The notes under the pieces: generated by a model
Database searches by the model: none
Seen by the model: only the letters and a program-made list of their open reading frames with translations
What the model was told of the DNA's origin: nothing
Source: Psilocybe cubensis
Lineage: Eukaryota
Assembly (NCBI GenBank): GCA_017499595.2
Contig: CM039007.1
Coordinates: 1,550,001 to 1,614,000, forward strand
Length of the DNA stretch: 64,000 nt
Reading direction: 5' to 3'
Made by a program: the position numbers and the translations under genes
In this document: in pieces, positions 1-38,753 of the stretch
Layout: each line of letters starts with the position of its first letter
Numbering within the stretch: the stretch's first letter is position 1

Positions 1-2625
1 CTCGGCGGCATCGGCGGCGGATGCGGTGGGTGCGGAGGGTGCATCGCATACCCCTGCGAAGGGTGCGGAGGTGGTGGAGGCGGAGGCGGCTGAGCGTATT
101 GACCATGGTACGGCGCGCGCGGCTGCGGCGAGCCCGTAGGTGCGCGATACGACGCGGCGTAGTCGTACGCTCCCGGTACAGGTACAGGTGCGGGAGGAGG
201 AGGTGGTGGAGGCACAGACGCCGCGTTCGGAGGCGCGAGCGGTGGTGGGATGGTGCTAGGCGACGAGTTTGCCGTGGCTGAACCTGGGACGGGCGGCGCA
301 GGCGTAGCATACTGGGGTGGCGGGGGCGCCATGGCGTGCGGTGGTGGTGGAGGCGGCGGCGCTTGCTGGTGCTGAGGTGGAGGTGGAGGCGGGAGGGGCT
401 GCCCCATCTGTTGATGGTGAGGATGCGCCTGTGGAGGCGGTGGTTGCTCATAATACCCATATTGATGCGGCGGCGGCTGTTGCGCGTACATTGCACCAGG
501 GTAATCGTACCTTCCCGGAGGCGGCATCGGCGGCGGCATCGTCTGCTGGGGATAAGCAGCGTAGTACGGGTGCATGCCTTGCTGCTGCTGCTGCTGTTGC
601 TGCTGTTGCTGATGATGGTGGTGGTAAGGGTCATAAACAGGCTGTTGTGGGTGCGGTGGTGCCCATTGCGGGTACGGCGCGTATCCCTGCGGGGGAGGCG
701 GCGGGGCACCGTGCATAGCATGCGGCTGCATGACGTGCGGGGGCGGAGGCATCGGCTGCTGCTGCGGCTGCTGTTGCGGCTGCATCTGCTGAGGCGCATA
801 CTGCTGAGGGTGCTGCTGATGCGGCGGGAGCTGCTGCTGCTGCTGCTGGGGTGGTGGCGGCGGTTGGCTTGGGTCGCGGTACATCGGCGGCGGGCCCTGA
901 GGGATCGGCTGGGGTTGCGCAATAGGTTGCTGCGGTTGCGGTTGCTGCCCAGGCTGCTGCTGCTGCTGTGGTTGTTGCTGTTGCTGGGTATCGTAACCGG
1001 ACATAAACCCGCCGCCGCGCCCGTCGAACACACTGGGACCAGGCAACGGCGCAGGCGTCGAGCTCATACTCCCAGGCGGCGGGATCTCCTGCGCAGCTTT
1101 TGGTGGTGGAATACCTTGCGGAACAGGCGGCGGGATCGTCGGGCCCATACCCGGATTACTAGACGCAGCCGGCGGCCAGGGCTGCTGCTGCTGCTGCTGC
1201 TGCTGTTGCGGCACAGGCGCCAGACCAGGGGGCGGTCCAACGCCCGGGGTCGACGCGCCGAGATCGATGATATCGTCTACTCGGCTCCGCTTGGACTCGC
1301 GTCGTTTGGGCTGAGGACGCATGTCGTCGTCGTCGTCGTTGTCCGATGTGACGTCCATGGGCACGACCTGCGTCAGCTGTGGATTCGGCCGCTTCCGCAC
1401 ACGGATGTCTTTGCGTATACGGATCTTGATACCTTGGTCGGCCAGCGAACATGATAGTGGTGTTGACTCTAAAGTGAGAGAGTGAATGAATGTTTGGTAA
1501 GCTTTCCGGTGAAAAAGGGAGGGGCCATGATCATGGACATACCCTCCATTCCAGGGAATTTTTTTGCAGTGTACACGTAGAATGGTGCGGAGTAGATCGA
1601 TTTACAGTGCCGGACATTATTCCTGTAAATGAAAAAGAAAGAGTTAGAATAGAAGAACAGTGATAGTGATGTCTGTCATAGTCCGGCGTTGCACTCGCCC
1701 GCACGTGGAAAGGTGCAGCGAACGGTGGATCTGACCGACAGCTCGGTGCGTGATTGGTGCCTCGATCAAGGGATTGGCGCCAACGAAGCAGCATCAATCC
1801 CCGTGAAAAAGGGCCCCGCTTGGCGGAGACGCGGAGTGAGGCGGAGATACAGGGAAATTGAGTGTACTCACGCAACGACCTCGAATAGACTGAGTTTGAG
1901 GCGGTAGCTTCCTTCAGTCCTCACACTTAGATCAGGGAAAACGAAGAAGCCCGCATCTTGATATGGATGGATCAGTGGAAGCGAATAGCGGCAGCTTGCC
2001 AAGACTGACTGACCTTCGTTGTTGTGTTGAGGATCTTTCAAGTGGTATAGTGATGAAACGACAGAACCTGTCGTGCACCTTGTCCGGCCGTCCTAAGGCA
2101 GGCAAGATTAGACATGAGAAAGGGAAAAACAAAGGGCGAATAGTCGGACCTTTAGCCAATGCAATTCATTGTCATCATCCGGGCGAGCGAGACTTGCAAA
2201 CATGAAATAATACGGATTTTGGAGGAATGATTGGGCGTAGGCTGCGCCTTCGTTGTCGTCCGAGTGCTGGCGGACGGTCGAGCTGGAACTGGGTGTAGGC
2301 GAGCCGGGAGGTGAGCCCGTAGAGCTGTTTCTCCTGCGACGAGAGGGAGAGATCTGGGAGGGCCCGCCCTGGGCTGCTGGGTCGATTACGCGGAGCTGGA
2401 CGATAGGCGGTGGATCTATGGGTCGGCGGTCGGCTGGCGACGAGGGGTCGGTTGGGATAGAGTATGAATAGATTGGGATTTGGAGGACGGACCTTTGCCT
2501 CCGACACCACACATGCGGGCCTGCTTTGGCTCCTGGCGAACGACGAGCTCATATATCCTGCGGTGGCCGGGATCGTAGTTGTTGATGAGATCGCACGGGT
2601 GGAATTGGGGTATAGAGATGGGCAT
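1..2625 (-). CDS. Velvet-domain transcription regulator with long Q/P/Y/H-rich C-terminus (3' end outside window)
   Basis: Spliced translation gives velvet motifs YELVVRQEPKQARMCG, DRRPIDPPPIVQLRV, FLQNPYYFMFASL, GSVVSSLYHLKD, GFFVFPDLSVRTEGSYRLKLSLFE, VYTAKKFPGMEESTPLS, QGIKIRIRK; ATG at 2625; GT-AG introns. Confidence 0.93.
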
Positions 2626-17811: not shown

Positions 17812-18077
17812 CCACAAAACTCTAATGACCACCAAAAAGACATGATTAGACGGACAGTGTAACGCCAGTGTATTGTACACCAGAAAGCTTCCGATTAATA
17901 GGCGACCTTTCAAACATGTTAATTTCTTGCACAATGGAGATGAAAGTTAATTAACAGGCAGAGCAAAACAGTTTCGACAGGTGTACATGTAGCAATTCAG
18001 CAATCGACATTTGTCCATGAGCAATGTTTTTTAAAGTTCGACAACCAGCAATAGACTTCATACCGAACGCACTGTTT

Positions 18078-20270
18078 TTAACGACCGCCGAGATTACGAA
18101 GCATCACATCGTGCAATGCACATTCATGGTCCTTTGAGCAGCAAAAATGAGATGTGGCATGTCGGACAGAAACGATACACAAATACCTGATCCAACGACC
18201 ATGTGAAGCATCCACCCATCCCCGATTTCTTGGCAAACAAAGTCTTGCTGGCGATGCTAGAAGGATCATCATAACTGACAACAGTAGTTCGACTGACATT
18301 GAAAAGATACTAATAAAGCGTCAACTTTCACATAATTCTCATGATATCGACGAAAAGGTCTCGAACCGGAGTATCGCTGCAGTCATCCCATCCTGGAAAA
18401 CCGGAATGTGTCAATTAGGCGCCTATCATCAATGTTTGGCAGACTTTACCCATTGTATATCCGTTAGCGGCAACATAGTGCTCCCCTCTCTTTTCCAAAG
18501 CTCCAGCCTCAACCAACTGGCAGAACGCAATTTGTTGCCCCCACAGCTTGCTAAGGTCGCCTGCAGCACCTGACAACGATATCGGGCGCTTTGATTTCGG
18601 GTGGGCAACATTTAGTATCCGTCCAGACGGAGCAAAGCTGCCAGAAAGCTTCTTGTCTGTGCTCTTTGAGACATATCCATACAATGGGAGTCCAAGGAGA
18701 AGCTTGGAAGCAGGCATCCCTGCCCGAGTCCACTGTTTGAAAGCAGCCTCAGCTGTTGCTTGTGGCTGACGACTCGTTCCACATGCATCGCCTTGATACA
18801 ATGAGATAAGAAATAACGTCGATCTTTAATAACTCACTTAGTGGGGCATTGGGACCAGGGTGAGATGAGGAGGTGAAAACGTCGTAATTCCTATGACCAA
18901 ATTATCAATGGAATTGCAATTATCAGGTTGTAAAGACACTAACATGATGTTCACGAAGCTCATATACTTTGCGTACTCTTCGACGTTTGTGAGAGGTAAG
19001 CCTTTAGGTCCTAGCCACGGAAGCTGGGTTACTGCCGCAGATATAATTCTCGAATTTCCTTTACAAGATCAGGTCAAAATACAAGTCTCGGAAAGAGAAA
19101 GGGAAGCTTGCCAATGGCGCTGCGAAGCGCTTTGAAAAAGGACAAAAGGTTTGCAGCGTCTTCGGGTGAATGAGGGTTACCAGACCCTGGTGAATTTGGA
19201 TACTCCTTAGGTTCAAAGTATACATAAGCCGCTTTCTGAAGCACAAAGTGCATTAAACATTTACCCAGTCAATATCAATTCCTACATTGGAGGCAATGTT
19301 AGTATCAGTCTTTTCATTGCTAAAACATGCCTACCATCCAGACCATACGATTCAATCGTGTCGCAAAGAGTTTTCACAAATTTAGTGCGACTGGCTTCGG
19401 TGGACATAACTTGACTGTACCAATGACAACCACCCCAGCCACCTTATATGGCGCATACATTCCAGTGAAAACGTAAGTTTTTTGAGAAAATGTCCACATA
19501 CCAACAGAAAGAACTATCTTGGTCGGATGACCGCTTCTTCGGACGCAGGAAACAAGGTTTTTCAAAGATTCCTGAGCGCCACTGTCCCAGTTTATACCAG
19601 CCTCTCCGTTCGGAGTAGCGAATGCTGTAGAATATTTCGTCAAATACTTTTCATCAGCAACTCTATGCACTTACCAAAGAAAAGGACATCGAACTTGGAA
19701 AAGTCGATCTTGTGCGGCGGGCTGGAATCAGACGCCCAAGATGGATAATAAGCAGCAGCGATAGGCTTAGTCGTCCTTTCTGGCTCATTTTTGAGGATTT
19801 CCTTGGGCATCAAAGTCCCTTTGAAGGACATCTCAGGTAATCCTGCTTTGGGCCAGAAGCAGGATTCATTCATCACAAGGTCGCTGGCTCCAATAAACGC
19901 CAGAAAGGTCGCGGAAGAGCGAGCATCCAAACGATGAAGCAAGTGGGTCAGAAACATTTGCAGTCCTCTCTTTCTTTCTTCGATCAGCTGGTTGTCGACC
20001 CATGCCGAGGGTAAGAACGAAGTGGCAAAAACATGTTTTGGTGGTAATGGAAAAGGAACTTCGAGGGCTTCCTTTAATGTTACAAACTATACAAGCAAGT
20101 TAGAGCGCATATATGCACATAAATATCGGAATTACCTCAGAATAACGGCGAAGGACTTCATATTGATTCCCATTCTCGCGTATCACATTGATGATGTACA
20201 CGACGTGAGGTTGGGGGAACGATGAAGTGGTATGGTTGTAGATGAACAGTGAGTCAATAGCAGAAGACAT
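18078..20270 (-). CDS. PX domain-GH18 chitinase fusion, copy 1
   Basis: PX: PHVVY..RRYSEF..LPPK..IEERKRGL; GH18: AAYYPSW, KIVLSVGGWGG, LDGIDIDWEYP, NIMNYD, KLLLGLPLYG, VSYDD, GCFTWSLDQ; no signal peptide. Confidence 0.9.
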
Positions 20271-20524
20271 CGAAGTAATTGGGAAAGAGGTGAATAAAGA
20301 ATATGGATTAGACTCGAGATTTATAGGCCACACAGTTTGTATGCCTTTGTACAAATGTCATTCAAAAAAAGAAGCTTCTTTTCCGAATTTGGACGTTGTG
20401 TAACCTCGACCAGCCCAGGTCCATCAATATAATATATATCCTATTAGAAGTCGGTAGTAAGTCGTACAAAAGGTCGTAAAGGTCGTAAACTATACATCGT
20501 AAAAAAGACACGCGCGATATGCAA

Positions 20525-22995
20525 TTATTTACCCATCGCTGCTCGAATCACATCTTGCAAAGAAGTTCCATCATCCTGTAGCCATGAGTGTTGCAATGAG
20601 CATGGTGAAGAAACTGGAACGTTTCAGTAACTTGCCTGATCAAGGGACCAAGTGCAGCAACCTGCGAGGTCATTCTCCTGCGCAAACTTTACTTTGGCGG
20701 CAAGAGATCGAGTATCTTGGGACAGGGTTAGCTCTAATCCAATGTAAAACGAAGATCCAATCTTACTATCAAAAGTAATCAAGGTCTTCTTCTCAACGTT
20801 AAAAATGTACTGCAGGACGTTGTCAATTTATCTGCCAAACAATATCGAAACTATTTAGCTTACAGGGGTAGAGCTTGGATCATCCCAACCTGCAGCAGGA
20901 TGATCAGTAACAAAGCGAGTATACATGAGGAACAATACTTACCCATAGTAAATCCATCCCCGTGGCCATAATTCCCATCGAATCTTTTCACAAGCGCACC
21001 CGAGGCAACGATGTCCTTGAACGCAATGGGTTTGCCCCACCAAGCAGACAATGCTCCTCTCGAATTGGGTTTCTTTCCGAGATCCTTGACATAGACAGCC
21101 TTATGAGCACCTTTGAAGGTGTGGCTAGCGAACGACAGAATGTGATCAGTTGGAGTAGGAGGCGTGCCTCCGTTCAGAGCTGTTTTCTTGCTTTTGAATA
21201 CATGGCCAAACAATGGTAAACCAAGTAAAATCTGATGTCGTCTGTTGAGCGAAGGTGATGGCGCAAAAAGAAGAAACGAACCTGTCCGCTTGGGAAGCCA
21301 GCCGTTTTCCAACGAAGAAGAGCCGCTTCCGCCGTGGTCTGTACTCTCCTCTGGTTCTTGATAGCGTGACCTATGGATGATAGACAATTAATGGGATAAG
21401 TGAGTTGGGTAAAGAGAAAAATGCCTACCTAACGGTGCATTAGGTCCTGGAGCAGACGTACCCCATACGCTATAGTTCCTATAGAAAATGCAAGGGTATT
21501 CAAGATTAGCCCTTAAAAAAAAATTTAATCTTACATGATGTTGATATAGGTCAAACTCTCTGCATAAGCCGAAACATCGTTGAGGGTCGTTCCATCTGCG
21601 CCTGCCCAAGGGGCGTGTTGAACGGCAGCAGAAATGATTTTCGCAGGACCTGAAGAACATATACAATTGCAAGTCAAATTCATATTCTTGAAACAATGCT
21701 TTAAACACTAACCCAATGCGGAACGGAGAGATTGAATCAACAGCAAGAAATTTGCGGCGTCATGAGCAGAGTACGGATTTCCTGCCCCTTTAGCGTTGGG
21801 GAATTCCTAACGAAATTATCATACAATTAGCTCTCATAATCCAACAAATTGCCTAGAGGAGAAACATACCCAATCAAGATCAATACCTACAGATAAGTCA
21901 ATAAATTGTCTTTTATGATGAAAAAGAGAACAGACCGTCTAGTTCGTATGTGTTTACAACGTTTTGGATCGTTTGCACAAAAGTCATTCGGTTGTTGGCC
22001 GAAGCGCAAAGATGACTGAACCATTGACTTCCATTCCAACCACCTATATAATTCGAGAATGCGGTCAGGAAATTGACTATGTCGTCAAAACCGAATGATA
22101 CTTACCGATGGACAAAGCTATCTTAGTACCGAAACCGCTAGCCTTCGCACAGGCAATCAGGCGCTTCAGAAGAGCCAAAGTATCACGCGCCCAGTCAAGT
22201 GTCGACGAGGCGTTAGGTGTGGCGAAACCTATATTCAGACAAAAGGAAAAATTGTCAAGTTGGCACTGTCAGTTAAGCAACATGTACTTACCAAAGAAGA
22301 TGATATCGAACTTGGAATAATCCAAGCTCTCGGGAGGAAGCGTTCCAGCGCACCACTCAGGATAGTAAGCTGCAGATACAAGCTTCTTCTTCGGTGGTTC
22401 CTCCTGAACAGGTACTTGTTCCTCTTCGTGGTCGTCCTCTACCAATGACAGAGATTGGACCTGATCACGGAGAGAAAAAAATGCCGAAACATCCTTTCTG
22501 GTCAGTGTCGAAGGAAGAACGTCTTCAACATCGATATTCTCATCGGGCTTCAGCGCATCGCGTTCAAGGAACCCTTTAATGATCGGAGTGTCCCTGAACT
22601 CGGGTGACCATAACAAGGCTGCGAGATATTTGGCTAGGCCAACCTTGCGCTCCGCGATCAACGCGTCGTCGAGCCACCCAGAAGGAAAAATAGCAGTGAG
22701 GATCGCGTGCTTGGATGGTAGCGAGAAACCATCTTTCAGAGCAGCTGGAGAATGAACGGAAATTTAGAAGACTTTTATGTCAGGACAAAAGCTAGAAGAA
22801 ATCGTACCATGAAGCGCTACAAACTGCACATTCCATGAGATCAGACCAGATGAAATATTGCGAAGCACGTACCTCTGAATAGCGTCGATGTATAACAATC
22901 TTCGTCGTTCCCGTTGTGATCTCAACGACATAGACGACGTGCGGGTACGGCTTCGAGGTTGTCGTGTGCTTGTTGATAACCACAGAAACACCCAT
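20525..22995 (-). CDS. PX domain-GH18 chitinase fusion, copy 2 (divergent)
   Basis: PX: PHVVY..RRYSEF..LPSK..IAERKVGL; GH18: AAYYPEW, LDGIDLDWEFP, NIMNYS, ILLGLPLFG, GCCTWSLDQ; last intron GC-AG. Confidence 0.88.
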
Positions 22996-23726
22996 GATGA
23001 TAGACGCCTCGGAGCGAGAAACCAGGAGAATAAGGTTGAAAACGCAGCATAACGATTATAAGAGCATCTCGAGCCTCCAACGCTGCCCTCGAGTCCCCGG
23101 CAGCACATAACCAGCCTTCTCACTGCAGAGCATCGTGTCTCACAGGGCCCTCCGCCGATTTCCCATTCTGGCCTACACACAGGCGTTGGCGCTAATTTTG
23201 TTTGCGAGGGTGAGACCACTGTGGTTGAGTCCTGGGCAGGCGAACCCAGGTCGCGAAAAAATTGTCATGATTTGGAGAGGGACGCTACTAGCCACCATGT
23301 CTGACAATGTTCACAGAAGAAAGCGACCAAAGCAAGAAATCCAGGTTCCGAAGGGGGTCGTTGTTAACAAGGTAGCTATTGACATGAATGTTTGAGAAAA
23401 TCAGTGACGCGACTTGGACGCGACCCTCGCGTGCGTCGCTAAATTCGCGAGCACCCCATTTATGGTAATTTACTTTTTCGAAAAAATATGAGTAAGAACA
23501 AATAATCACATTCAATCAGGTTCTGAGGGCAAACAAAAGTACTACTATACTCTATCGGTACGAGAGGATATAGCGCTACGTATATACAGAAATATATTAT
23601 ACATCAAAAAAACGAGGTCCATCATAATCATTACACAGTCACGAACAAATCCAGGGGCCATCGAGGCCATATTGCCAGACCGGCTGACATACAAGTGCTC
23701 GGTGTAGTCCAAAGAGATGCGGACAT

Positions 23727-26174
23727 TTACTTTCCGAGACCTTTGCGAATGGCGTTGTGCAAGGTAATTCCGTCATCCTAAAGTTGAAACGCACAAGTTA
23801 ATACGCGAGGGGAAAATGAATAAATGAAACGCCAAACCTGATCAAGGGACCAAGTTGCACATCCAGCCATGTTGCTCGAAACAACGAGCTTGGCTTTGTC
23901 GGTAAGAGACCAGGTATCTAACGCGAAAGGCATCGTTAATATGCTTTGTTTGAGACGGAACTGGGGATAACTCACCGTCGTAAGTAACAACCGTGCTTTG
24001 GTCCTTGTTGAAAAGGTACTAAAAAGGAAGAATTTAGCACCTAAATAATCAGCTGAACAGGTTAAATTGAACGCACAGGCGTGTTGCTGCAATTATCCCA
24101 ACCTGAGAGGGAAAAATTAGCTCTTTTTGGTGCCCAAAGGCGTTCGAGAAGAGTAACACATACCCATTGTAAATCCACCCGCTTGTCCATAATTTCCATC
24201 AGACCTCTTGACAAGAGCGCCGGCCCCGACGATATCTTTGAACGCGATTTGTTTGCCCCAATATCCGGTCAGATTGGCAGCAGCGTTGATTGTGGGCGCG
24301 TCGGCCTCGGGATTGGTAACTTGGAGAGTCGTATTTGGGTGTGCGCCATTCAAAAATTCTGTTACCTCGACCTTGCCATCAGAACCTTTAGTCTCTGTCT
24401 TCTGAAGGAGCAACATCTCAGGGGTAGGCACTGAGCTGCCTGTCAAGACAGTCTTGGTACTCTTCGAAACGTATCCATAAAGCGCACATCCAAGGATGAG
24501 CTAACAATAAATGTACACAGATTATAGTCAGAAAGAAATATTGTAGGCAGGCTCGATAATTAGACTTACTTTGTTGCCTGGGAACTTAGCAGCAGTCCAT
24601 TGCTTATACGCGGCTTGTGCGCTTGCCTGAGGTTGCCAGGAAGTTCCGCACAAATTACCTGCGAGCGTTCAAGATTCAATGCCATCCATCTAGAATATTC
24701 AATTGAACGTACCATAAGGTGAGTTGGGACCAGGAGTAGCAGAGGCCCCCCAAACATCGTAGTTCCTGGAGAAGAAATTAGGAATGCGTTGAAAACATAC
24801 AAAAAGTCCGGGAAACAAACATGATTATGACGTAATCCATCTCGGCCGCAAATGCGGAGACATCGGTGAGCGGTTTACCGTTGGATCCCAACCAGGGCAT
24901 GTGGGATACAGCAGCAGAGATGATCTTGCATGGACCTGAGAGGGCGAGGAGATGAGCGATAAATTTGGGGGTATGGTTTGAAAAGACATCATCGTACCAA
25001 GAGAGATCCTCAACAGCTTGATTAGACTGAGGAGGTTGGCTGTGTCAGCGGCAGAGTAGGGTTGGCCAGCTCCTGGAGAATTCGGGAATTCCCAGTCAAG
25101 ATCAACACCTAGAGACGACGAGAATTGTCAGGGCAGATCAAAAAATGCACGAGATGTACAAACCATCGAGGTTATAAGTGTTGATGGCAGCAGCAATCGA
25201 ATTTGCAAACTTGGTTCGGTTTGCAGAGGTCGAGCAGGCCTGGCTGAAGTATTGGCAACCACCCCACCCACCTGAAATGGTTGAATTATCAGAACAATAT
25301 TTAAACAAATCTGTCGTCATTGATTGACGTACCGATAGAGATGAGGACGCGGGTGCCATGTCCACTGGTACGAGCTCCAGTAACCAGGCGCTTCAATAGT
25401 GCAGTGTTGCTGATATCAAGAGTATTAGACGAGGTCGGGACACCAAACGCTAGAAAAAAATGTTAGGTTCTCCACGAATAAAAGATGAAACAGAAGACAA
25501 AAGCTAACCGTAGAAGAGTAGATCGAACTTGGAGTAGTCGATACTCTCAGGAGGGCGAGCGCTACCGCCCCAATAAGTATAATAGGCACCAGCAATCTTG
25601 CTTGCGTTCGCATTTGCGGTCGAGAGTGTTGCCTCGCTAGGCTCTCCAGCTGCAATTTGCATTGCCTCTTTCCTGGTGAGAGTGGATGGCAAAGCGTCCT
25701 CGGGGTCGAACTTCATATCGCGCTCGATAGTTTGAGCAGAGAGGAACTCGTACAGAAGGGACTTGTCCTTGAATCTAGGGGTAGAGAGCAAGTCGACTAA
25801 GTACTCGGCGAGCCCGACTTTGCGTTCCGCGATGAGCTCATCATCAACCCATGCAGAGGGGATGAAAGTGGTTGCCAAAAGGCGCTTAGGAGGAAGGGTA
25901 TAGGGGTCCTTTAGGGCCTCTGTAGTGCGATCAGCTTTGCATGGAGAGTGTAAAAGCGATGATTATACTTGCCATGGAGTGTCACAAACTGAGATAAATG
26001 ACGAGACAGGTTCAGCAACTAAACAAAGGAATAAATAGGGAAAAAACCGACCTCAGAATAGCGTCTATGCGCAATCAATTCTTTACCATCAACTTTGGCG
26101 TTGATAGTGTAGATAATATGAGGGCGAGGCTTAGAAGCGGTGGTGTGAGTGGAGATGGTAACAGTAGGCATCAT
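23727..26174 (-). CDS. PX domain-GH18 chitinase fusion, copy 3
   Basis: PX: PHIIY..RRYSEF..LPPK..IAERKVGL; GH18: GAYYTYW, GGWGG, LDGVDLDWEFP, MNYDVWG, GCATWSLDQ; one GC-AG intron in PX. Confidence 0.9.
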
Positions 26175-27363
26175 TGCAAGAAAAAAGAAGGGCAGTAGCA
26201 GGTACCCTACCTCGACTGGATTGGATTGTTAAATACGACACAAATATTTCCATTCATGCGTTACCAGGCCACTGAGCCCCAGATGATGACAGAGGTGGAG
26301 GAGTTGAAGCCACTCTGGGCTGTCTCACAAACAAGAATGCCTGCATCCGCGATAGTTCCACTTGTCAAGGAGACAGGGTGCCTGGAACGCGACTGAAAAA
26401 AAATTGAAAACAGGGGTGCTACTCAAGACGCTTGAGCGTCTTGGGATGCATATTGAACAGTAAATGTGCAAGAGTCTGTACATACAGCAACTGGAGACGT
26501 GAATTGAACCCTTCCAAGTTTCTGTATCCTGGACGAATTCTCTTGAGCAGGCTTGTCGAGTTGGTGCAACCATCTCAGCTGGATAGGCACGCGGAACCAA
26601 TCTGTGGCGGCTCCAGGAGCCAGCACCCGACCAGAGAGAATATTAGCAAGCACGTACGCACAACAGTGTACCTGTTGTGGCTTCTCAGACATCCAAGGAG
26701 GTTCGGGAGCGCCGAAAGAAGGCTTGTCATAGCTTGTCATTCAACAGGTATGATGCGCAGCGGATATGTACCAAGCGGTAGAAAAGATCACATAGATCAG
26801 CCAGGCGCATATTTGGAGATGATACAGACATCAGTGACTATCTTTGAAGTCCGAGCTAGTCCGAGCGAAATAGTTTCAATGACTCGTTTTCCACTGAAAT
26901 AGACCAGTGAATTTGTCGCTCTTGTTGGCTCCTTGAAGAGCGTGCACTGCTGGCACGTCAATTTTGCCTTCCGTTGTCGATTACAGCCTGCAAGATAACA
27001 AAAGGTGTATTCGTAATGGTCTGAGGTAGAGATTGCGAAGCATAATTGGCCTGGACTGTGGAAGAAAGAAGGAGGCGTGCCGCTGCCCCTGTGTTCGGAT
27101 GTTTTTCCGGTTTTCCAAGTGACGTGCCGGCCAATTCCAGGATCGACGAAATGAATACGATGATGCGGGATGCCCATTTAAACCTTTACGACAGTAACTC
27201 AAATTTACGACAATGTTCGAAACACGGCAGATGAGAGATTCATTGACGTATTTCTATATAATGCACCGTATTCGTGCTGCCCTCTCTCTGCCTTCCCGGT
27301 CTAGTTTAGTGGGGTCTTCCTCCCTACTCAATTTTGGAACACTTTGAAGCTAGTCGAGCTTCT

Positions 27364-29100
27364 ATGGCATGCTTTTCTCTTTCCCAACAGTTCCGCAAGG
27401 TTTCTCCATGGCAGGATGCCCCTAGCGACGTCCTCATCGAAATTTTTCGCGAATGCATCGAGCCGTTGAAGTATGAGCAGCCCAACACCACCGTAGCCCC
27501 GATGCTCCTCTGCCAAGTTTGCTCTTACTGGCGATATGTCGCATTGGGTGCCCCACAGCTCTGGGATTCGCTTTATCACACTTGTAAAATTATCCCTCCG
27601 AAGGAACACACAGAATCCAGTGTGCTGAAAAACTGTATTCGTGCAAAAGATGTCCGCTTTTTGCAATGGTGGTGCAAGAACCTTGGGACGAAGAGTTCCC
27701 AGCTACGTCTCCGGCTGGACTGGTCTCATGTTGCCCGTAAATCCAAACACCCGGAGCTTGGTGTTAACGAAGACAGTGATCAAGCTCCGCATCCGGAAGA
27801 GCAATGTCAACTGTTCGAATCCCTCATCTCATCTGCAAAATATCTCGACTTGGATCCCTCCTATGTTACCGTTTTATCAAACTGGACATCCTTGCGCCCT
27901 TTCAGCTTCCCTAACCTCAACACGCTCGTCATGCGCCACGATACATGTACTACCAGAAGGCAAGGAACACTATATAGAGGCGTTCTAGCCGTGCCGATGA
28001 ATGCAGCGCACACACGTCCTATCCAGCAGTTGTATCTCGAAGCATTCAGATTCCCGGACAGCAAGTCCCTTGCTGCATTCAACTGGATCCATTTGACCCA
28101 CGCGAGTCTGCTGCACATACACATCCCTCTTCCAGTGTGGCACCACCTTATTCGGTGTCTAACAAGTATGCAGAGCGGCTTTTTCCAAATCTGCTCATTC
28201 GAAATGCCCAATGCAAATACGCACTTCATGAACTCCAGAAACGATGACGGCTACAGTCACCCTCCTATGGCCATCCTACCTTTTCTGCACACCCTCCATC
28301 TCTCCTTGCCACCACACCGCATATTGACCTCCCAAATCCTACTCGCCCTATCCTTACCGTCTCTCCGGCATCTCCGCCTCTCAAGTCTCGGCCTTTCCCT
28401 GTCATCTCTGCACGCAATCCTCTCCTCCACCCCCTCACTCACACAGTTACAGCTCTGTGGCAGCATCCCTTTCTGTTGGACCTCACATACCATTTCCATC
28501 CCACCCGCCATCCCGCCACACCCAACCCAAAGCGCCTGCACACCACTCACCGAGATCCTACCCAACCTCACTCACCTACTCCTAGACGGCAGCATGCAAA
28601 ACAACCACATGGTTTTATCTTGGGTATGTGCTGTGCTCTCTTCGCCGTGGCTGCAATTGCCCATGCGGGGCGGCCACTACCAACGCCACCATTCACATTT
28701 GGATTCATCCGCTACATTCGCTGCTGCCACTTCCACGGAGAGCGACGCCACCAATGCAAAACGCAGGGGTATCACCCACCTGCATCTTGCTATCTCCAAC
28801 CCATCTGATACCATTCCCGATGGCGATGACACCAACATCTCCGCCCAACAGCAATTTCCGTTGACATTATACAATTCCTCCAGCACGCACAATGAATGGA
28901 TGCCCTCACACCTCTTTTCCATGGAACGCTCGAATTACGTGATGCAGAAGCTAAAGAGTATTGTCGCAAAATGCGACTTGGATCCAACTGTGGAAGTTGT
29001 CATTCGCGGACCGGATGCTCCAAAGCTGTGGTCAGGAAACCTCATTAACGAAGACGAAAACCCCGCCTTCGAGGTTTCAGGGTTCTTCCCACTGAATTGA
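27364..29100 (+). CDS. F-box-like protein with degenerate LRR-like repeats, single exon
   Basis: PSDVLIEIF..APMLLCQVCSYWRYVALGAPQLW motif; repeated LPxLxxLxL units; uninterrupted ORF with first ATG at 27364. Confidence 0.85.
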   Translation: MACFSLSQQFRKVSPWQDAPSDVLIEIFRECIEPLKYEQPNTTVAPMLLCQVCSYWRYVALGAPQLWDSLYHTCKIIPPKEHTESSVLKNCIRAKDVRFLQWWCKNLGTKSSQLRLRLDWSHVARKSKHPELGVNEDSDQAPHPEEQCQLFESLISSAKYLDLDPSYVTVLSNWTSLRPFSFPNLNTLVMRHDTCTTRRQGTLYRGVLAVPMNAAHTRPIQQLYLEAFRFPDSKSLAAFNWIHLTHASLLHIHIPLPVWHHLIRCLTSMQSGFFQICSFEMPNANTHFMNSRNDDGYSHPPMAILPFLHTLHLSLPPHRILTSQILLALSLPSLRHLRLSSLGLSLSSLHAILSSTPSLTQLQLCGSIPFCWTSHTISIPPAIPPHPTQSACTPLTEILPNLTHLLLDGSMQNNHMVLSWVCAVLSSPWLQLPMRGGHYQRHHSHLDSSATFAAATSTESDATNAKRRGITHLHLAISNPSDTIPDGDDTNISAQQQFPLTLYNSSSTHNEWMPSHLFSMERSNYVMQKLKSIVAKCDLDPTVEVVIRGPDAPKLWSGNLINEDENPAFEVSGFFPLN

Positions 29101-29398: not shown

Positions 29399-31077
29399 TT
29401 ACTTCAACTGAGAAAGCAAAATAATTCCGTTAACAAACTAACTTCAGAGCAAAGATTTTACCAAAAAGACTCACGTTCTTGCCATCAACCCACTTCTTGC
29501 CATCGATTTCGAGATCCCAGGCAAGGGCAGCCTCGAAGAAGGCCTTGTCAGCAGGGGAGTTTTTCACGTCGAGCTTGGTGTACGAGTAGGACTCGTAATC
29601 GGGAGCAACGTTGATGACAGGGATGATGTCCTGTCCACGAGCGATGATGATGCCAGAGATGGCAGAGTCGCCAGTGGTACCAAGAACACCGAGGGATCCG
29701 AAGACATACTTGCGGGAAGCCTCGAGGCGGTTGAAGAAGCCGCCAATCTGGTTGGAAGACATGAAAGTCTGGGTCAGTTCATCGTTGTACTTGAAGTCAA
29801 CCCTCCAGACTGAGAAACCATCGTAGTCGAAGCTACACGCAGAGAAATGAGAACATGAGGATCGGCAGACACAGCTAATAACGAAATTCTTACTTCTCGT
29901 AGAACCATTCGATAGAACCACCGGCACCGCGGGTTTCCTTGTTGGAGTACGCGCGTTTCCAGTCCTCAAGGTTGAAGGAAGACTTAGGGAGGTCGTCAAG
30001 GGGGTTCTTGACTTTGGGTTCGGCTGGGACAAGATTGTCATCCTCATCATCGTCCTCTTTGGCCTTTGGCTTCTTCTCAGCCTTGGGAGCAGGAGCAGCA
30101 GCAGGCTTGGCCTCTTTCTTTTCCTTAGCGGGAGGAGTGAATTGGATGGCCTTGTCAACGTAACTGGTCTCGCCGAAGACAGCCTTAAGTTTGGGCTGGT
30201 TGACGATGGTCTCGAGATGGCGGATAAGGTTAGGGAGTTTGGCGCGAAGGGCAGCATCAATGGTGATTCCAACGGCTTTTTGAACGAGGCCAGCAACGGT
30301 AAGGTCAGCAAGGGTAATGCGTTCACCAACAAAGAAGGTACGGGTGGCAAGATGGGCTTCGAGGGTGTTCAAGGTGCGAGTTTGGCGTTCAACAAGGGTG
30401 GTATGGGTCTGGGATTTTAGTCAAATTTTGGACGAAACAGAAGAGAAAAAAAATGATGCTTACAGCCTTGTTGTAAGGGTAGAGGCCGACGCAAAGGCCA
30501 CGGATGAGATCGGTGAAAGTATCGACCTCAGCTTCCGTCAAGTGAATCCATTGGTCGACGAGAGCGGCATCCTCAGGGGATCCTCCGAGCAGTCCAGAGT
30601 TGGGGGCAACACTGGCAACTGGAGACAAGAGATAAGTTAGCAAGAAATATATTAAATCAACGTAAATCGAATTCAGGAAAAGTATCTTTGTAGGTAAGGA
30701 CGCATATAACAGCACACGTCAATGTCTCGATATCAACGAAAGATTCCCTGAAGTTGTTGCGATCGATAAGATAAGGACACTCACGGTAACGAGCAATAAC
30801 GGTGCCCTCGAAGAGCTTGAAGCCGTTGGCGCTTTCCCAGGCAGGAATCTTGCCATGAGGGAACTTGGACAAGAACTCAGGCTTCTTGTTGTCAACCATG
30901 TGCTCATAGGCAGCAGGGAGGGCGATCTCAACACCGCTCAAGGCAGCGACGGCCTTGATCTAGAGTTTACAGCAAGAATTCATTAAGCACCCGATATTAA
31001 GTCTTAATGAAAGTATAACGTACGATCTTGCCCTTCGCCTGGTAATCGGTGGTCCACAAAGTTCCAGCTGGTGCCAT
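29399..31077 (-). CDS. TEF4: Translation elongation factor 1B gamma
   Basis: GST-like N-terminus (KFPHGKIPAW, FFVGERITLAD), Lys/Ala linker, C-terminal KNPLDDLPKS..WKRAYSN..FMSSNQIGGFFNRLEASRK. Confidence 0.96.
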
Positions 31078-36224: not shown

Positions 36225-38753
36225 ATGTATACGCAACTCGCTGAGATCCCAGTTCCAACCGGAGCGCGTTTCTTGGCCCGTCATGCTCTCGGTAATTGTC
36301 AATCGCTGTTCAAGAATACCCCAAATGCGACTTTGAATTGCATCTGCTAGATTCGAGGCCTGCCGCCGTAGAGGTCACATACTCAGTGAAAGACCACTTA
36401 AAGAACTCTAAACGGAACATGATCAAGACGATAGTATTTTCCACGGAGGCGACACATGGTCCAATCTCTGTTTCTACTGCTCTTCAAGATGTCGATATTG
36501 TTGCACAGCTTATCTCTCCGTCAGGCCAACGGCGAGCCATCCTGCGAAGCCCAAAGTCAGGAACCCCACGATATGTTGAAATTTGGAGAAATGGACTTCT
36601 GGAAACTTCCCTAGATGTGACGGACCTCCATGGAGATTTTTACTCGGATGGTAAGTGTAAATGATGTTTAGTAGAAGTTTCGCACGACCGCTCAAATGTC
36701 TGTGCCTCGTCATTGTCAGAGTTCCTTGGATCACTATCCTTTTCGCCTTCAGAAACCACAGTGCTGTATACAGCAGAAGCTAAGGCACCTGAGACGAAAG
36801 ACCCATTTGAGAAGTTCAAGTTCACTCCCGATTTCGGCGAAGGTCTAACTGGGAAACGTCGACCAGTCATCTTCATCTTTAATTGGGAAAATCCACCCAG
36901 TGAAGACGGCGACAAGAGAACTTTGGTACAGATAACTACACCAGATGGTGATACTCGGTTCGGCCAAGCCGTATTCTCTTCCAACTCGGATAAGGTCATC
37001 TACGCAACGGGATACGATTTCACTGCAGACGGACGGATATTAGGCATTAAAGGCTGTTTCAATCGCCCTTCGGGTATATGGAAGTTGAATATAGCTTCCG
37101 AGCCACCCACTCGTACGGATGACTTTAAAATTCGTCCAGTAAAGGTGGACGCGTCTGTGCAAAAACTGACGCCACGCCATGTCTCATGCCGTTCTCCTCG
37201 CATTTTCACCCATAACGGACGAAGCACTTTGATCTGGCTATCTAGTGCTAGTGGTGGTGCCCATCTTGCTAGTTCGACATTGTACTCTCTCGATGTCACT
37301 AATGATTCCTCTGAGCCTTTGAACATCCCTTCTCCTCATGAGCCATTGGTGGGAATTGTTGATACACCAGGGCCCCAAACAAACGGCTTTCCGGGACTCT
37401 ATCCAACCTACAATATTTTACCAGACGCAACTGCGATTTCTCCTGCTGGGCTTTCTGTCTTGGTGAGTTCTCACTGGGGCTCCCGCACCACCGTTCTTCA
37501 AATATCTTTGAAAGACGGTCTGGTTAGGGACCTTATTCCCATTTCGACATTGTATAGCTGGTCGGTTCTAGCTACGGATGGTTTCACTCGTGTAATTTGT
37601 TCTTGTAGTTCCCCTTCTTTGCCTTACGAAATTGTGCTTGGAGAGTTCGATGAGACAGGGGCCATTAGCTGGCGAGTACTCGATAAACCTGAGCTTCCTG
37701 AAGATGGTTTGTTATTCTTAAGGCCCTATCTATCCAGTCATCCTAACCCAAGCATATGACAGTCAGTTCAGCTTTGGCAGGTATTCGTACGAAGATCGTT
37801 CGAATTCCTGGGCGTCCTGGTGTAGAAACAATTGTCGTTCAGGGTGCTAACAGGGGAAGCGGGACGATTCCGCCTTGCATTCTTTCTCCTCACGGTGGAC
37901 CACATGGTGCTAGTACCACTGCATTCTCACCAACTACAGCTGCATTGGTCATTGAAGGCTGTAAGTAAATATTGCTACCAAGCTTCAGAAACTTGCTTAT
38001 ATTGCATCTAGACACAATTTCCTTCCCAAATTATACAGGATCCCCTGGATATGGAGAGGCTTTTATCCAAGCCTTGGTTGGTCGATGCGGAGAACTCGAT
38101 GTCCAAGATTGTATAGCGTCTGCCCGGCACCTCATCTCTCTCGGGATTTCCAAGGAAGGCCCGGGAATGCAATTGATAACGGGTGGAAGCCATGGAGGGT
38201 TTTTAACGGCGCACCGTATGTTCTTGGCCTCACGCAGACAAACTACATGCTAAAAAACCATGCAGTCGTTGGACAGTTCCCAAATTTCTTTTCAGCCGCT
38301 ATTTTGCGTAACCCTGTTATCTCGGTCGGAGAGATCTCGACCAGCGACATTCCAGACTGGTATTTTTCCGAGTTCGGTTTCGACTACCCAGTGTTTTCGT
38401 CTTCCATGTCAAACACAGAACAACTTGCGTCGTACCCAAACCCTCCGTTGGTAACCCCAATGACATTTGCCACCCTCCAAGCTGCTTCGCCCGTGGCATA
38501 CATCGACGCTGTATCCGTCCCTGTCTTACTTTTGATCGGCGCAGAGGATCGGAGGGTGTCACCAACTCAGGGCATCGAATATTATCATGCTTTGAAAGCG
38601 CGGTACTCGGCGAAATCGAAAGCCAGCAAGGTAGAGATGCTCGTGTTCGAAGGCGAAAGTCATCCTCTCGATGGTGTGGAGGCAGCCAAGGCGAGCTTTG
38701 AGGCTACGGTGCAATGGTTTAGAGAAGCAGTAAACTCAAAGAACCATTTGTAG
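36225..38753 (+). CDS. Acylamino-acid-releasing enzyme (S9C peptidase); start approximate
   Basis: HGGPH, NYTGSPGYG, GGSHGG nucleophile motif, RNPV, EDRRV, ESHPLD. Confidence 0.92.

What the first reader, a model, noticed from the sequence alone, without database searches (positions are those of the whole stretch)
18078..26174. Tandem array of three PX-domain/GH18 chitinase fusions: candidate membrane-targeted intracellular chitinases
Seen: three head-to-tail genes, each starting with a PX domain instead of a signal peptide, followed by a full GH18 domain with intact DxxDxDxE (LDGIDIDWE, LDGIDLDWE, LDGVDLDWE). All share an intron right after RRYSE, so the fusion predates the duplications. Known: PX domains bind phosphoinositides, usually PI3P on the cytosolic face of endosomes, vacuoles and autophagosomes, while chitin is normally extracellular or lumenal. 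Inference: this topological mismatch suggests chito-oligomer or N-glycan processing at endomembranes, delivery to the vacuole, unconventional secretion, or a lysis-released defence/autolysis enzyme. I know of no functional characterisation, but the architecture may already be in domain databases.
Basis: partly seen in the sequence, partly recalled or inferred. Interest (0 to 1): 0.85.

Follow-up and report, generated by a model that had tools for sequence, protein, structure and literature searches.

The report
Tandem PX-domain chitinase genes in Psilocybe
Three neighbouring mushroom genes each encode a chitin-cutting enzyme that carries a lipid-binding PX domain where a secretion signal would normally be; the design is real and expressed, but it belongs to a gene family already catalogued across mushroom-forming fungi.

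Summary
On the minus strand lie three intact head-to-tail genes: C 26174-23727 (559 aa), B 22995-20525 (558 aa) and A 20270-18078 (533 aa). Each has an N-terminal PX domain, a linker and a complete GH18 chitinase domain. None has a signal-peptide-like N-terminus. Spliced RNA contigs join the PX and GH18 exons in single contigs for genes C and A. The window is Psilocybe cubensis (100% match).

The architecture is not new. 118 of the 120 best homologues listed carry PX+GH18 in precomputed Pfam, and all the named ones are Agaricomycetes. An ESM Atlas cluster has 175 members. One paper passage cites a PX-carrying chitinase of Phanerochaete chrysosporium as "expressed but chitinolytically inactive".

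New here:
- a corrected gene model with a 16-nt micro-exon;
- the closest relatives outside Agaricomycetes include signal-peptide chitinases (U. maydis cts3 type);
- a Cys pair shared with those relatives is kept;
- a near-invariant ED..PST..R motif sits in the linker;
- paralogue B has lost the Cys pair and the MxYD aspartate.

Best reading (about 0.4): the PX domain replaced a signal peptide and gives a PI3P-dependent, non-classical route to the vacuole lumen or the wall. Localisation and activity are untested.

The parts
23727..26174 (-). Gene C: PX-linker-GH18 chitinase, 14 exons, 559 aa. It is the canonical family member, 91% identical to the first third of the merged P. cyanescens model P0001.
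   Evidence: Model. RNA contig X1 record 3 (1837 nt) runs from exon 1 to 23527. It matches NCBI model P0002 except in the micro-exon. Tree placement.
25973..25988 (-). 16-nt micro-exon of gene C, encoding FVTLH(+1 nt) inside the PX domain. It is followed by a GC-AG intron (25972-25920). The public model P0002 lacks it.
   Evidence: table 5c: 15 letters lie between the joint 25920/26052 in X1 and X2, and they are the reverse complement of this exon; model C has FVTLH where P0002 has V.
25714..26174 (-). PX-domain coding part of gene C (residues ~1-115, interrupted by two introns). It holds RRYSEF, LPPK and ERK.
   Evidence: Pfam PF00787, 25.2 bits. The PX part of orthologue P0003 hits solved PX domains. 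Residue counts.
25669..25701 (-). Linker motif EDALPSTLTRK of gene C. It is near-invariant in the family. Gene B has EDVLPSTLTRK starting at 22526. Gene A has diverged here.
   Evidence: E 133, D 133, P 135, S 133, T 130 and R 128 of 135 rows. pLDDT is 51-60 over this stretch of the P0003 model.
25089..25170 (-). Catalytic motif LDGVDLDWE of gene C, split by intron 5.
   Evidence: Family counts: D 121, D 131, D 133 and E 135 of 135.
20525..22995 (-). Gene B: a divergent PX-GH18 paralogue, 15 exons, 558 aa. The DxxDxDxE motif is intact, but MNYD has become MNYS (Ser codon 21471-21469) and both family cysteines are lost. The last intron is GC-AG (20635-20576).
   Evidence: It clusters with the P. 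cyanescens B part and with Agrocybe pediades P0057, support 100.
22808..22823 (-). 16-nt PX micro-exon of gene B (FVALH), at the same position and phase as in gene C.
21870..21886 (-). 17-nt micro-exon of gene B encoding (G)IDLDW. The catalytic Glu codon is the first codon of the next exon (21806-21804).
18078..20270 (-). Gene A: a divergent PX-GH18 paralogue, 12 exons, 533 aa. It has only one intron in the PX part, its linker motif is degenerate, and the catalytic motif and Cys pair are intact. Intron 6 is GC-AG (19111-19059).
   Evidence: All 11 introns appear as joints in X1 contigs. X1 record 2 (840 nt) links exon 1 to the GH18 exons.
19265..19281 (-). 17-nt micro-exon of gene A encoding (G)IDIDW.
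   Evidence: table 5c: 15 letters lie between the joint 19206/19334 and are the reverse complement of this exon. Model.

Best explanation
What is shown. These are three paralogous, intact genes of the Agaricomycete PX-GH18 family. Two of them have RNA support. Each protein has no signal peptide or transmembrane-like segment. Each consists of a canonical PX domain, a roughly 40-60 residue linker, and a group-A-type GH18 chitinase domain that has the insertion domain and a complete DxxDxDxE centre.

What is inferred. The PX domain took the place that a signal peptide plus a Ser/Thr-rich linker occupies in the closest relatives outside Agaricomycetes. It binds PI3P on endosomal, vacuolar or autophagic membranes. 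In this reading the PX domain does not hold the enzyme at work in the cytosol. It serves as an entry ticket to a non-classical route: capture into multivesicular-body or autophagic carriers, or a CUPS-like secretion compartment. That route would end in the vacuole lumen or at the cell wall, where chitin is found and where the conserved Cys pair could be oxidised. The near-invariant acidic linker motif ED..PST..R would be the sorting or partner-binding signal.

Predicted roles of the three copies. C is the conserved working copy. A has lost the linker motif. B has lost the Cys pair and the MxYD aspartate and probably has altered or reduced activity.
For: Anatomy: intact spliced ORFs.

Single transcripts: one RNA contig joins exon 1, the micro-exon, the PX exon, the GH18 exons and the 3' end of gene C. 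Another joins the PX and GH18 exons of gene A.

No signal peptide: the best 10-residue hydropathy in the first 35 aa is 0.69 (C), 1.47 (B) and 1.65 (A), and at most 1.72 in all 55 rows of alignment A1. The six signal-bearing relatives used as positive controls score 2.48-2.81.

No upstream exon seen for gene C: an unspliced RNA contig covers 26102-26240 across the ATG, and an in-frame stop lies at 26231-26229.

PX identity: Pfam, and matches to solved PX domains of SGK3/CISK, SNX22, KIF16B and SNX3.

PX lipid-binding residues: R 130, Y 126 (+4 F), K 134 and R 135 of 135 family rows, and all four are present in A, B and C. That these four are the PI3P-binding positions is recalled from p40phox and comes from no call.

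GH18: the best solved relative is Rhizomucor miehei chitinase RmChi1 (E 3e-47; Foldseek E 6e-29, target TM 0.79, on the model of orthologue P0003). The catalytic Glu is present in 135 of 135 rows.

Signal peptide in relatives:
- The best non-Agaricomycete relatives are GH18-only proteins of Ustilaginomycotina and Pucciniomycotina.
- The U. maydis member is UMAG_06190. PMC10617569 equates it with cts3 and says it has a signal peptide.
- P0359, P0303, P0299 and P0284 begin with hydrophobic signal-like segments followed by Ser/Thr-rich linkers.

Cys pair: both cysteines are present in 130 of 135 family rows and in 5 of 5 outgroup rows. Both are lost together in the three B-type rows.

Linker motif: near-invariant, yet modelled with low confidence, pLDDT 51-60. 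That pattern fits a motif read by a partner.

Precedent: U. maydis Cts1 is a GH18 chitinase without a signal peptide that is exported unconventionally, and it binds PI(4,5)P2 liposomes. One search also notes a signal-less GH18 chitinase in the agaric Hebeloma cylindrosporum. states that Acb1 uses a di-acidic motif to enter CUPS.
Against: Nothing here shows lipid binding, localisation, export or enzyme activity.

Most PX proteins stay on the cytosolic face of membranes (recalled). I know of no PX domain shown to carry its own protein across a membrane.

The ancestral state is not settled. The Pucciniomycotina models P0077 and P0093 and the Polyporales GH18-only models P0071 and P0073 have no signal-like N-terminus. 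They may be truncated gene models.

The family is not orthologous to the unconventionally secreted Cts1 (UMAG_10419). Its closest U. maydis relative is cts3.

The Cys-pair argument rests on one co-loss event, and I could not measure the Cys-Cys distance because model coordinates are not returned.

A passage in PMC8097845 says the P. chrysosporium PX chitinase was chitinolytically inactive (second hand).
Confidence: 0.4

Rival explanations
1. Resident cytosolic-face enzyme. The PX domain tethers an active chitinase to PI3P membranes, facing the cytosol. There it trims chito-oligosaccharides that reach the cytosol (imported, or made by chitin synthase in transit) for GlcNAc recycling or signalling.
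For: This is the simplest reading of the anatomy: no signal peptide, a canonical PX domain and an intact catalytic centre.
Against: I know of no cytosolic chitin pool (recalled). The Cys pair shared with signal-peptide relatives is kept in 130 of 135 rows, which is unexpected for a long-term cytosolic resident. This reading does not explain the near-invariant linker motif.
Confidence: 0.25
2. Autolysis reserve. The enzymes are kept latent inside living hyphae, parked on endomembranes, and reach wall chitin only when cells die or vacuoles rupture. This would happen during hyphal or fruit-body autolysis or in damaged compartments. The tandem copies would supply dosage or stage-specific variants.
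For: There is no export signal. Three diverged copies are conserved in the same order in P. cyanescens (the merged model P0001). RNA contigs show that genes A and C are transcribed.
Against: No developmental or expression data were obtained. The strict conservation of the PI3P-binding residues and of the linker motif suggests more than passive storage.
Confidence: 0.15
3. Mainly non-hydrolytic. The GH18 domain acts as a chitin or chito-oligomer binder or sensor, or as a regulator, on endomembranes. This is most likely for paralogue B.
For: The passage in PMC8097845 cites the P. chrysosporium PX chitinase as expressed but chitinolytically inactive. Gene B, its P. cyanescens counterpart and P0057 have Ser in place of the MxYD aspartate. 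That this aspartate contributes to GH18 catalysis is recalled and comes from no call.
Against: The catalytic Glu is invariant (135 of 135) and the two flanking Asp are present in 131 and 133 of 135 rows, including A, B and C. Lectin-type GH18 proteins usually lose these residues (recalled). The cited inactivity is second hand, and its assay conditions are unknown to me.
Confidence: 0.12
4. Annotation artefact. Either PX and GH18 are separate transcripts, or an unseen upstream exon supplies a signal peptide.
For: Gene B has no transcript evidence. The 5' ends of A and B are not covered across their ATGs by the pieces listed.
Against: Single spliced contigs join PX and GH18 in C and A. A contig runs unspliced across the ATG of C, with an in-frame stop upstream. 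Only 254 nt separate the stop of B from the ATG of A. The same architecture is modelled independently in 118 of the 120 listed homologues.
Confidence: 0.03

Closest known systems
Agaricomycete PX-GH18 proteins. In public annotation these are 'glycoside hydrolase family 18 protein', e.g. P0008 Hypholoma sublateritium, P0022 Pleurotus ostreatus, P0273 Phanerochaete sordida and P0241 Ganoderma sinense. They form an ESM Atlas cluster named 'putative Chitinase'.
   Same: The architecture, length, motifs and intron-rich structure are the same. Gene C is 69-72% identical to the Strophariaceae-type members over the exon tested. All three window proteins align end to end with the family profile.
   Different: Nothing essential differs for gene C. 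Genes A and B are fast-evolving paralogues: A lacks the linker motif, and B lacks the Cys pair and the MxYD Asp. The tandem triplet is shared with P. cyanescens.
Ustilago maydis cts3 / UMAG_06190 type chitinases (Ustilaginomycotina) and their Pucciniomycotina relatives
   Same: They are the closest GH18 catalytic domains outside Agaricomycetes. P0082-type proteins are 43-49% identical to the PX-GH18 proteins listed. They share the DxxDxDxE, MNYD, LCG.S and WDDCSDTP motifs.
   Different: They have an N-terminal signal peptide (stated for UMAG_06190 in PMC10617569; hydropathy 2.48-2.81) and a Ser/Thr-rich linker in place of the PX domain and the ED..PST..R linker.
Ustilago maydis Cts1 (UMAG_10419), a chitinase secreted unconventionally by a 'lock-type' route
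   Same: It is a basidiomycete GH18 chitinase without a signal peptide that still acts outside the cell. Its export depends on phosphoinositide binding, through Jps1 with PI(4,5)P2, and Cts1 itself binds PI(4,5)P2 liposomes.
   Different: It is not the orthologue, because the closest U. maydis relative is UMAG_06190. The passages I read describe no PX domain in Cts1. The lipid involved is PI(4,5)P2 rather than the PI3P expected for this PX type.
Rhizomucor miehei chitinase RmChi1 (PDB 5xwf, 5yuq, 7fbt)
   Same: It is the best solved relative of the GH18 domain by sequence (E 3e-47) and by fold.
   Different: It has the catalytic domain only, with no PX domain. The alignment shows it lacks the two family cysteines.
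PI3P-binding PX domains: SGK3/CISK, SNX22, KIF16B, SNX3 and fungal Vam7-like PX-SNAREs
   Same: These are the best sequence matches of the N-terminal domain and its nearest structural clusters (row 1, TM 0.61 by query, is a basidiomycete PX cluster with the automatic name 'Syntaxin'). The R-Y...K...R set is shared.
   Different: Here the partner domain is a glycoside hydrolase rather than a kinase, BAR, motor or SNARE domain. That the basidiomycete 'Syntaxin' PX cluster is Vam7 is my reading and was not tested.

Membership tests
GH18 chitinases (Pfam PF00704) | Profile match above the curated cut-off | tested here: met
   A single exon of gene C scores 31.3 bits against a cut-off of 29.6. An exon of gene A scores 22.0, below the cut-off because it is a fragment. 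Full-length homologues carry PF00704. Spliced window proteins could not be handed to Pfam, but they align end to end with the family profile.
GH18 chitinases (Pfam PF00704) | DxxDxDxE catalytic motif with the acid/base Glu | tested here: met
   LDGVDLDWE (C), LDGIDLDWE (B) and LDGIDIDWE (A). Glu is present in 135 of 135 family rows.
GH18 chitinases (Pfam PF00704) | SxGG, MxYD and the C-terminal Trp of the -1 subsite (the motif roles are recalled) | tested here: inconclusive
   C and A have all three. B has MNYS in place of MNYD.
GH18 chitinases (Pfam PF00704) | (beta/alpha)8 barrel with the alpha+beta insertion domain | tested here: met
   The AlphaFold2 model of orthologue P0003 (pLDDT 81) matches RmChi1, ChiL and class V plant chitinases at target TM 0.79-0.84. 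This was tested on the orthologue, not on the window proteins themselves.
GH18 chitinases (Pfam PF00704) | Hydrolysis of chitin or chito-oligomers | not testable with these tools
   The only statement found is second hand: the P. chrysosporium member is called 'chitinolytically inactive'.
PX domain (Pfam PF00787) | Profile match above the curated cut-off | tested here: met
   The exon translations score 25.2 (C), 25.8 (A) and 20.2 (B, below) bits against a cut-off of 21.6, and they lack the first 46 residues of the domain. The PX part of P0003 hits 37 solved PX sequences at E<=1, best 5.6e-10.
PX domain (Pfam PF00787) | PI3P-binding residue set: R and Y of RRYSEF, K of PPK, R of helix 2 (set recalled from p40phox) | tested here: met
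   All four are present in A, B and C. Family counts are 130, 126, 134 and 135 of 135.
PX domain (Pfam PF00787) | Phosphoinositide binding | not testable with these tools
   This needs liposome or lipid-strip assays.
Agaricomycete PX-GH18 family | End-to-end match to the family profile, with PX at the extreme N-terminus | tested here: met
   Profile positions 1-553 (C) and 2-553 (B). Gene A matches 6-409 plus 446-552.
Agaricomycete PX-GH18 family | Linker motif ED..PST..R | tested here: inconclusive
   It is present in C and B. In A the six positions read K, A, P, E, M, K.
U. maydis Cts1-type unconventionally secreted chitinase | Orthology to UMAG_10419 | tested here: not met
   The U. maydis protein in the closest clade is UMAG_06190, which is cts3, not cts1.
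U. maydis Cts1-type unconventionally secreted chitinase | GH18 enzyme without a signal peptide | tested here: met
   This was a hydropathy test with positive controls; no SignalP was available.
GH18 endo-beta-N-acetylglucosaminidases (the ENGase reading) | Closest sequence or fold relatives are ENGases | tested here: inconclusive
   The top sequence and fold matches are chitinases with the insertion domain. PF23916 (EndoS TIM barrel) appears only as a precomputed hit on the merged model P0001 and below its cut-off on outgroup P0077 (22.4 against 27). No direct comparison with a fungal ENGase was made.

The most novel reading that the evidence does not exclude
In the ancestor of Agaricomycetes a secreted chitinase exchanged its signal peptide for a self-contained ticket to unconventional transport. 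The ticket is a PI3P-binding PX domain plus a near-invariant di-acidic linker motif (ED..PST..R). The pair would load the folded enzyme into PI3P-positive carriers (CUPS-like, multivesicular-body or autophagic) for delivery to the vacuole lumen or the wall. This would be a one-polypeptide counterpart of the Jps1/Cts1 phosphoinositide-dependent export seen in smuts, and the first PX domain to act as an export or import signal for its own cargo.
Probability: 0.25. Interest if true: 0.75.

Novelty: new member of a known kind. Interest (0 to 1): 0.38.

Why it matters
Chitinases act on wall chitin, which lies outside the plasma membrane. This whole Agaricomycete family has a cytosolic-type lipid-binding head and no secretion signal, while its nearest relatives elsewhere are classically secreted. 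Working out where these enzymes end up would show one of two things: that mushroom-forming fungi have a PI3P-based non-classical route for wall or vacuolar hydrolases, or that there is an unrecognised cytosolic chito-oligomer metabolism.

On the practical side, the corrected model of gene C restores a PX domain that the public annotation lost, because a 16-nt micro-exon is followed by a GC-AG intron. Similar errors may hide PX domains in the 'GH18-only' models of other species.

Tried and rejected
- Whole genome: none is held for this window.
- RNA for gene B: the two spliced-contig runs (X1, X2) have no contig over 20810-23338. This says nothing about expression. The look-up of sequencing runs listed no run on record as RNA. 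I read X1 and X2 as RNA only because their contigs skip GT-AG and GC-AG introns that the DNA run X3 keeps.
- PX+linker against the GH18 domain (collected): the verdict was 'no answer' (score 0.00). It counts neither for nor against docking.
- Cys-Cys distance: it could not be measured, because structure prediction returns no coordinates.
- Karlsson et al. 2016 (Fungal Ecol 22:52): not held. I know it only through passages in citing papers.
- Literature searches with no relevant result:
  - 'PX domain'+chitinase+GH18+fungi: 0 papers.
  - 'PX domain'+GH18: 0.
  - 'phox homology'+chitinase+basidiomycete: 0.
  - 'PX-domain'+chitinase: 0.
  - phox+'glycoside hydrolase family 18': 1, irrelevant.
  - 'PX domain'+chitinase: 12 papers, of which I opened only PMC8097845; the other 11 looked unrelated by title and abstract.
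  - phox+GH18+chitinase: 6 papers. Only the Jps1 paper and its preprint version bear on this, and I read passages of the paper alone.
  - Subscription journals and supplements were not searchable.
- Origin of the PX domain: the ESM Atlas feature search of residues 1-150, leaving out GH18 clusters, gave no usable hit. Only structural neighbours were returned.
- Timing of the A and B duplications: the FastTree tree puts A and B on long branches, and B joins Auriculariales at support 80. I do not trust those placements. Only B+P0057 (support 100) and the cubensis-cyanescens pairs are used.
- Earlier notes of this scan: none.
- The hydrophobic-looking translation upstream of the ATGs of C and B (LLLPFFFLA, CCVFNLILLV) was considered as a hidden signal peptide and rejected. 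There is no in-frame ATG between the upstream stop and the annotated start, and the stretch is a CT-rich tract.

Full report
OBSERVATION

The window is fungal and intron-rich. A 152-aa exon translation from the region is 100% identical to a protein named 'Chitinase A1 [Psilocybe cubensis]' (P0002), so I take the window to be P. cubensis.

I built exon-intron models on the minus strand from the sequence and checked them in a script:
- Gene C: 26174..23727, 14 exons, 559 aa.
- Gene B: 22995..20525, 15 exons, 558 aa.
- Gene A: 20270..18078, 12 exons, 533 aa.

None has an internal stop. Of the 38 introns, 35 are GT-AG and 3 are GC-AG (C intron 2, B intron 14, A intron 6), and all are 46-69 nt long.

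The quoted catalytic motifs are present: LDGVDLDWE (C), LDGIDLDWE (B) and LDGIDIDWE (A). The phase-0 intron after RRYSE is shared by all three genes. tblastn with the three proteins finds no further copy in the window outside 18000-26300. The paralogues are old: C-B are 50% identical, C-A 48% and B-A 44%.

TRANSCRIPTS

No run is on record as RNA. Two runs, X1 and X2, nevertheless hold contigs that skip exactly the predicted introns (CT..AC on the plus strand), while the DNA run X3 is colinear with the window.

- Gene A: all 11 introns are seen. One 840-nt contig joins exon 1 (118 nt), the large PX exon and the GH18 exons, including the 17-nt exon that encodes (G)IDIDW.
- Gene C: an 1837-nt contig runs from exon 1 to 23527. 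Between 26052 and 25920 it carries 15 extra letters that are the reverse complement of a 16-nt micro-exon (25988-25973, FVTLH). That micro-exon is followed by a GC-AG intron.
- The public model P0002 skips this micro-exon. It has V where my model has FVTLH and is otherwise identical. This explains why P0002 carries no precomputed PX hit.
- A 139-nt contig of X2 covers 26102-26240 unspliced across the ATG of C. An in-frame stop lies at 26231-26229.

So in C and A the PX and GH18 exons sit on one spliced contig. For C, no upstream coding exon is spliced on in the contig seen.

DOMAINS

PX domain:
- Pfam finds PX on the large exon of C, A and (just below the cut-off) B.
- The PX part of the close orthologue P0003 matches solved PX domains: a designed CISK-PX at 5.6e-10, then SNX22, SGK3, KIF16B and SNX3.
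- In a 135-row family alignment, the four positions I recall as PI3P-binding in p40phox-type PX domains are R 130, Y 126 (+4 F), K 134 and R 135. All four are present in A, B and C.

GH18 domain:
- Its best solved relative is Rhizomucor miehei chitinase RmChi1 (E 3e-47).
- An AlphaFold2 model of P0003 (mean pLDDT 81, pTM 0.69) matches RmChi1, ChiL and class V plant chitinases.
- Spliced window proteins could not be given to these tools, so the fold evidence comes from the orthologue. P0003 is 69% identical to gene C over the exon tested.

N-terminus:
- The best 10-residue hydropathy in the first 35 residues is 0.69 (C), 1.47 (B) and 1.65 (A).
- It is at most 1.72 in all 55 rows of alignment A1.
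- Six signal-bearing relatives score 2.48-2.81.
- No 19-residue window in any of the three proteins exceeds 1.45.

HOW COMMON, AND WHAT IS IN PRINT

- 56 of the 59 hits to the PX exon carry both PF00787 and PF00704.
- With a 55-sequence profile, 327 proteins score E<=1e-40. Of the 120 listed, 118 carry both domains.
- All the named hits are Agaricomycetes. By my recalled taxonomy of the genera they span Agaricales, Polyporales, Russulales, Gloeophyllales, Auriculariales, Atheliales, Gomphales and others.
- The ESM Atlas has a cluster of 175 members with GH18 in 100% and PX in 99%, all Basidiomycota.
- P0001 of P. cyanescens (1615 aa) is a merged model of the same three genes in the same order.

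The library searches are listed under Tried and rejected. The only relevant text found is a passage in PMC8097845. It says that a PX-containing chitinase of Ganoderma boninense is up-regulated in planta, and that Karlsson et al. 2016 described a P. chrysosporium PX chitinase that was 'expressed but chitinolytically inactive'. That paper is not held. The family is therefore catalogued and has been noticed in print. I found nothing on its localisation or on the role of the PX domain.

EVOLUTION

The closest GH18 domains without PX are basidiomycete proteins outside Agaricomycetes. The U. maydis member is UMAG_06190. PMC10617569 equates it with cts3 and says it has a signal peptide. It is not the unconventionally secreted cts1, UMAG_10419.

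P0359, P0303, P0299 and P0284 start with a hydrophobic signal-like segment followed by a Ser/Thr-rich linker. The Pucciniomycotina models P0077 and P0093 do not. The ancestral state is therefore likely but not proven to be 'secreted'.

Two cysteines (LCG.S and WD.CS) are present together in 130 of 135 family rows and in all 5 outgroup rows. They are lost together in the B-type rows only (gene B, its P. cyanescens counterpart and Agrocybe pediades P0057). Two further rows lack one of the pair, and one of those is a mis-modelled slice. This pattern suggests a disulfide that predates the PX fusion, shared with the signal-peptide relatives. It is an inference from a single co-loss event.

The linker holds a near-invariant motif ED..PST..R, with 128-135 of 135 rows at each position. 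The structure model gives it low confidence, pLDDT 51-60.

Gene A has lost this motif. Gene B has also replaced the Asp of MxYD with Ser.

MECHANISM

Shown: the anatomy, joint transcription for two of the three genes, conservation, and the relation to signal-peptide chitinases.

Inferred (about 0.4): the PX domain binds PI3P and, together with the linker motif, replaces the signal peptide as the means of reaching an extracytosolic site, the vacuole lumen or the wall. The route would be a non-classical one.

Precedents:
- U. maydis Cts1 is a signal-less GH18 chitinase exported unconventionally. Its export depends on PI(4,5)P2 binding by Jps1, and Cts1 itself binds PI(4,5)P2 liposomes.
- The same paper notes a signal-less GH18 chitinase in the agaric Hebeloma cylindrosporum. 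A PX-GH18 protein of that species is P0014. Whether they are the same protein was not checked.
- Acb1 uses a di-acidic motif to enter CUPS.
- That CUPS and autophagic membranes carry PI3P, and that yeast Ams1 and Ape1 reach the vacuole lumen without signal peptides, are recalled and come from no call.

Rivals:
- a resident enzyme on the cytosolic face that trims cytosolic chito-oligomers (0.25);
- a latent autolysis reserve (0.15);
- a mainly non-hydrolytic binder or regulator, most plausible for B (0.12);
- an annotation artefact (0.03).

VERDICT

The architecture is a known, widely annotated Agaricomycete family, so this is a new member of a known kind rather than a discovery.

It is now sharper in four ways:
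- the relatives with signal peptides;
- the retained Cys pair;
- the near-invariant acidic linker motif;
- the Cts1/Jps1 precedent.

Noticed in passing
window 25920-25972, 20576-20635, 19059-19111 (minus strand): Three of the 38 introns in the array are GC-AG (donors GCAAGT or GCAAGC). Spliced RNA contigs confirm two of them, C intron 2 and A intron 6. Gene finders that allow only GT donors will mis-model such genes, as happened with P0002.
   Followed up: partly
window 25973-25988, 22808-22823, 21870-21886, 19265-19281: There are 16-17 nt micro-exons: one inside the PX domain (genes C and B) and one encoding the IDxDW core of the catalytic motif (genes B and A). Gene A lacks the PX micro-exon intron, and gene C lacks the intron after DW. 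Introns have therefore been lost or gained differently among the paralogues.
   Followed up: partly
window 26180-26228 and 23000-23055 (minus strand, 5' of the ATGs of C and B): CT-rich tracts just upstream of the start codons translate in frame to hydrophobic strings (LLLPFFFLA, CCVFNLILLV), but there is no in-frame ATG after the upstream stop. They are probably pyrimidine-rich promoter or 5'UTR tracts rather than coding sequence.
   Followed up: partly
window 26211-26400 and beyond: RNA contigs of X1 and X2 continue upstream of gene C to at least 26400. This is either a long 5'UTR or an overlapping neighbouring transcript.
   Followed up: no
window 3-1601 (minus strand): A GC-rich stretch (GC 0.62 over 1-2000) holds an open frame of 533 codons that runs off the window end and encodes an extremely Gln/Pro-rich low-complexity protein. 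It has no Pfam hit.
   Followed up: partly
window 27310-29100 (plus strand): A 596-codon open frame lies divergent from gene C and has no Pfam hit.
   Followed up: no
window 29430-30368 (minus) and 36665-38753 (plus): Neighbouring housekeeping-type genes: an elongation factor 1-gamma domain (PF00647, 2.3e-26), and an acylamino-acid-releasing enzyme / S9 peptidase (PF19283, PF00326).
   Followed up: no
window 42870-42987: A short tandem array with a period of 10-21 nt (unit GTCAGTGCAT, about 8-11 copies).
   Followed up: no
proteins P0006/P0057, P0026/P0030, P0048/P0049, P0042/P0054, P0242/P0338, P0031/P0236, P0024/P0259, P0027/P0266, P0023/P0243: In nine other species, two PX-GH18 paralogues are listed with the same 'longest contig' length. 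This suggests that linked or tandem copies are common in Agaricales. It was not checked at the DNA level.
   Followed up: no
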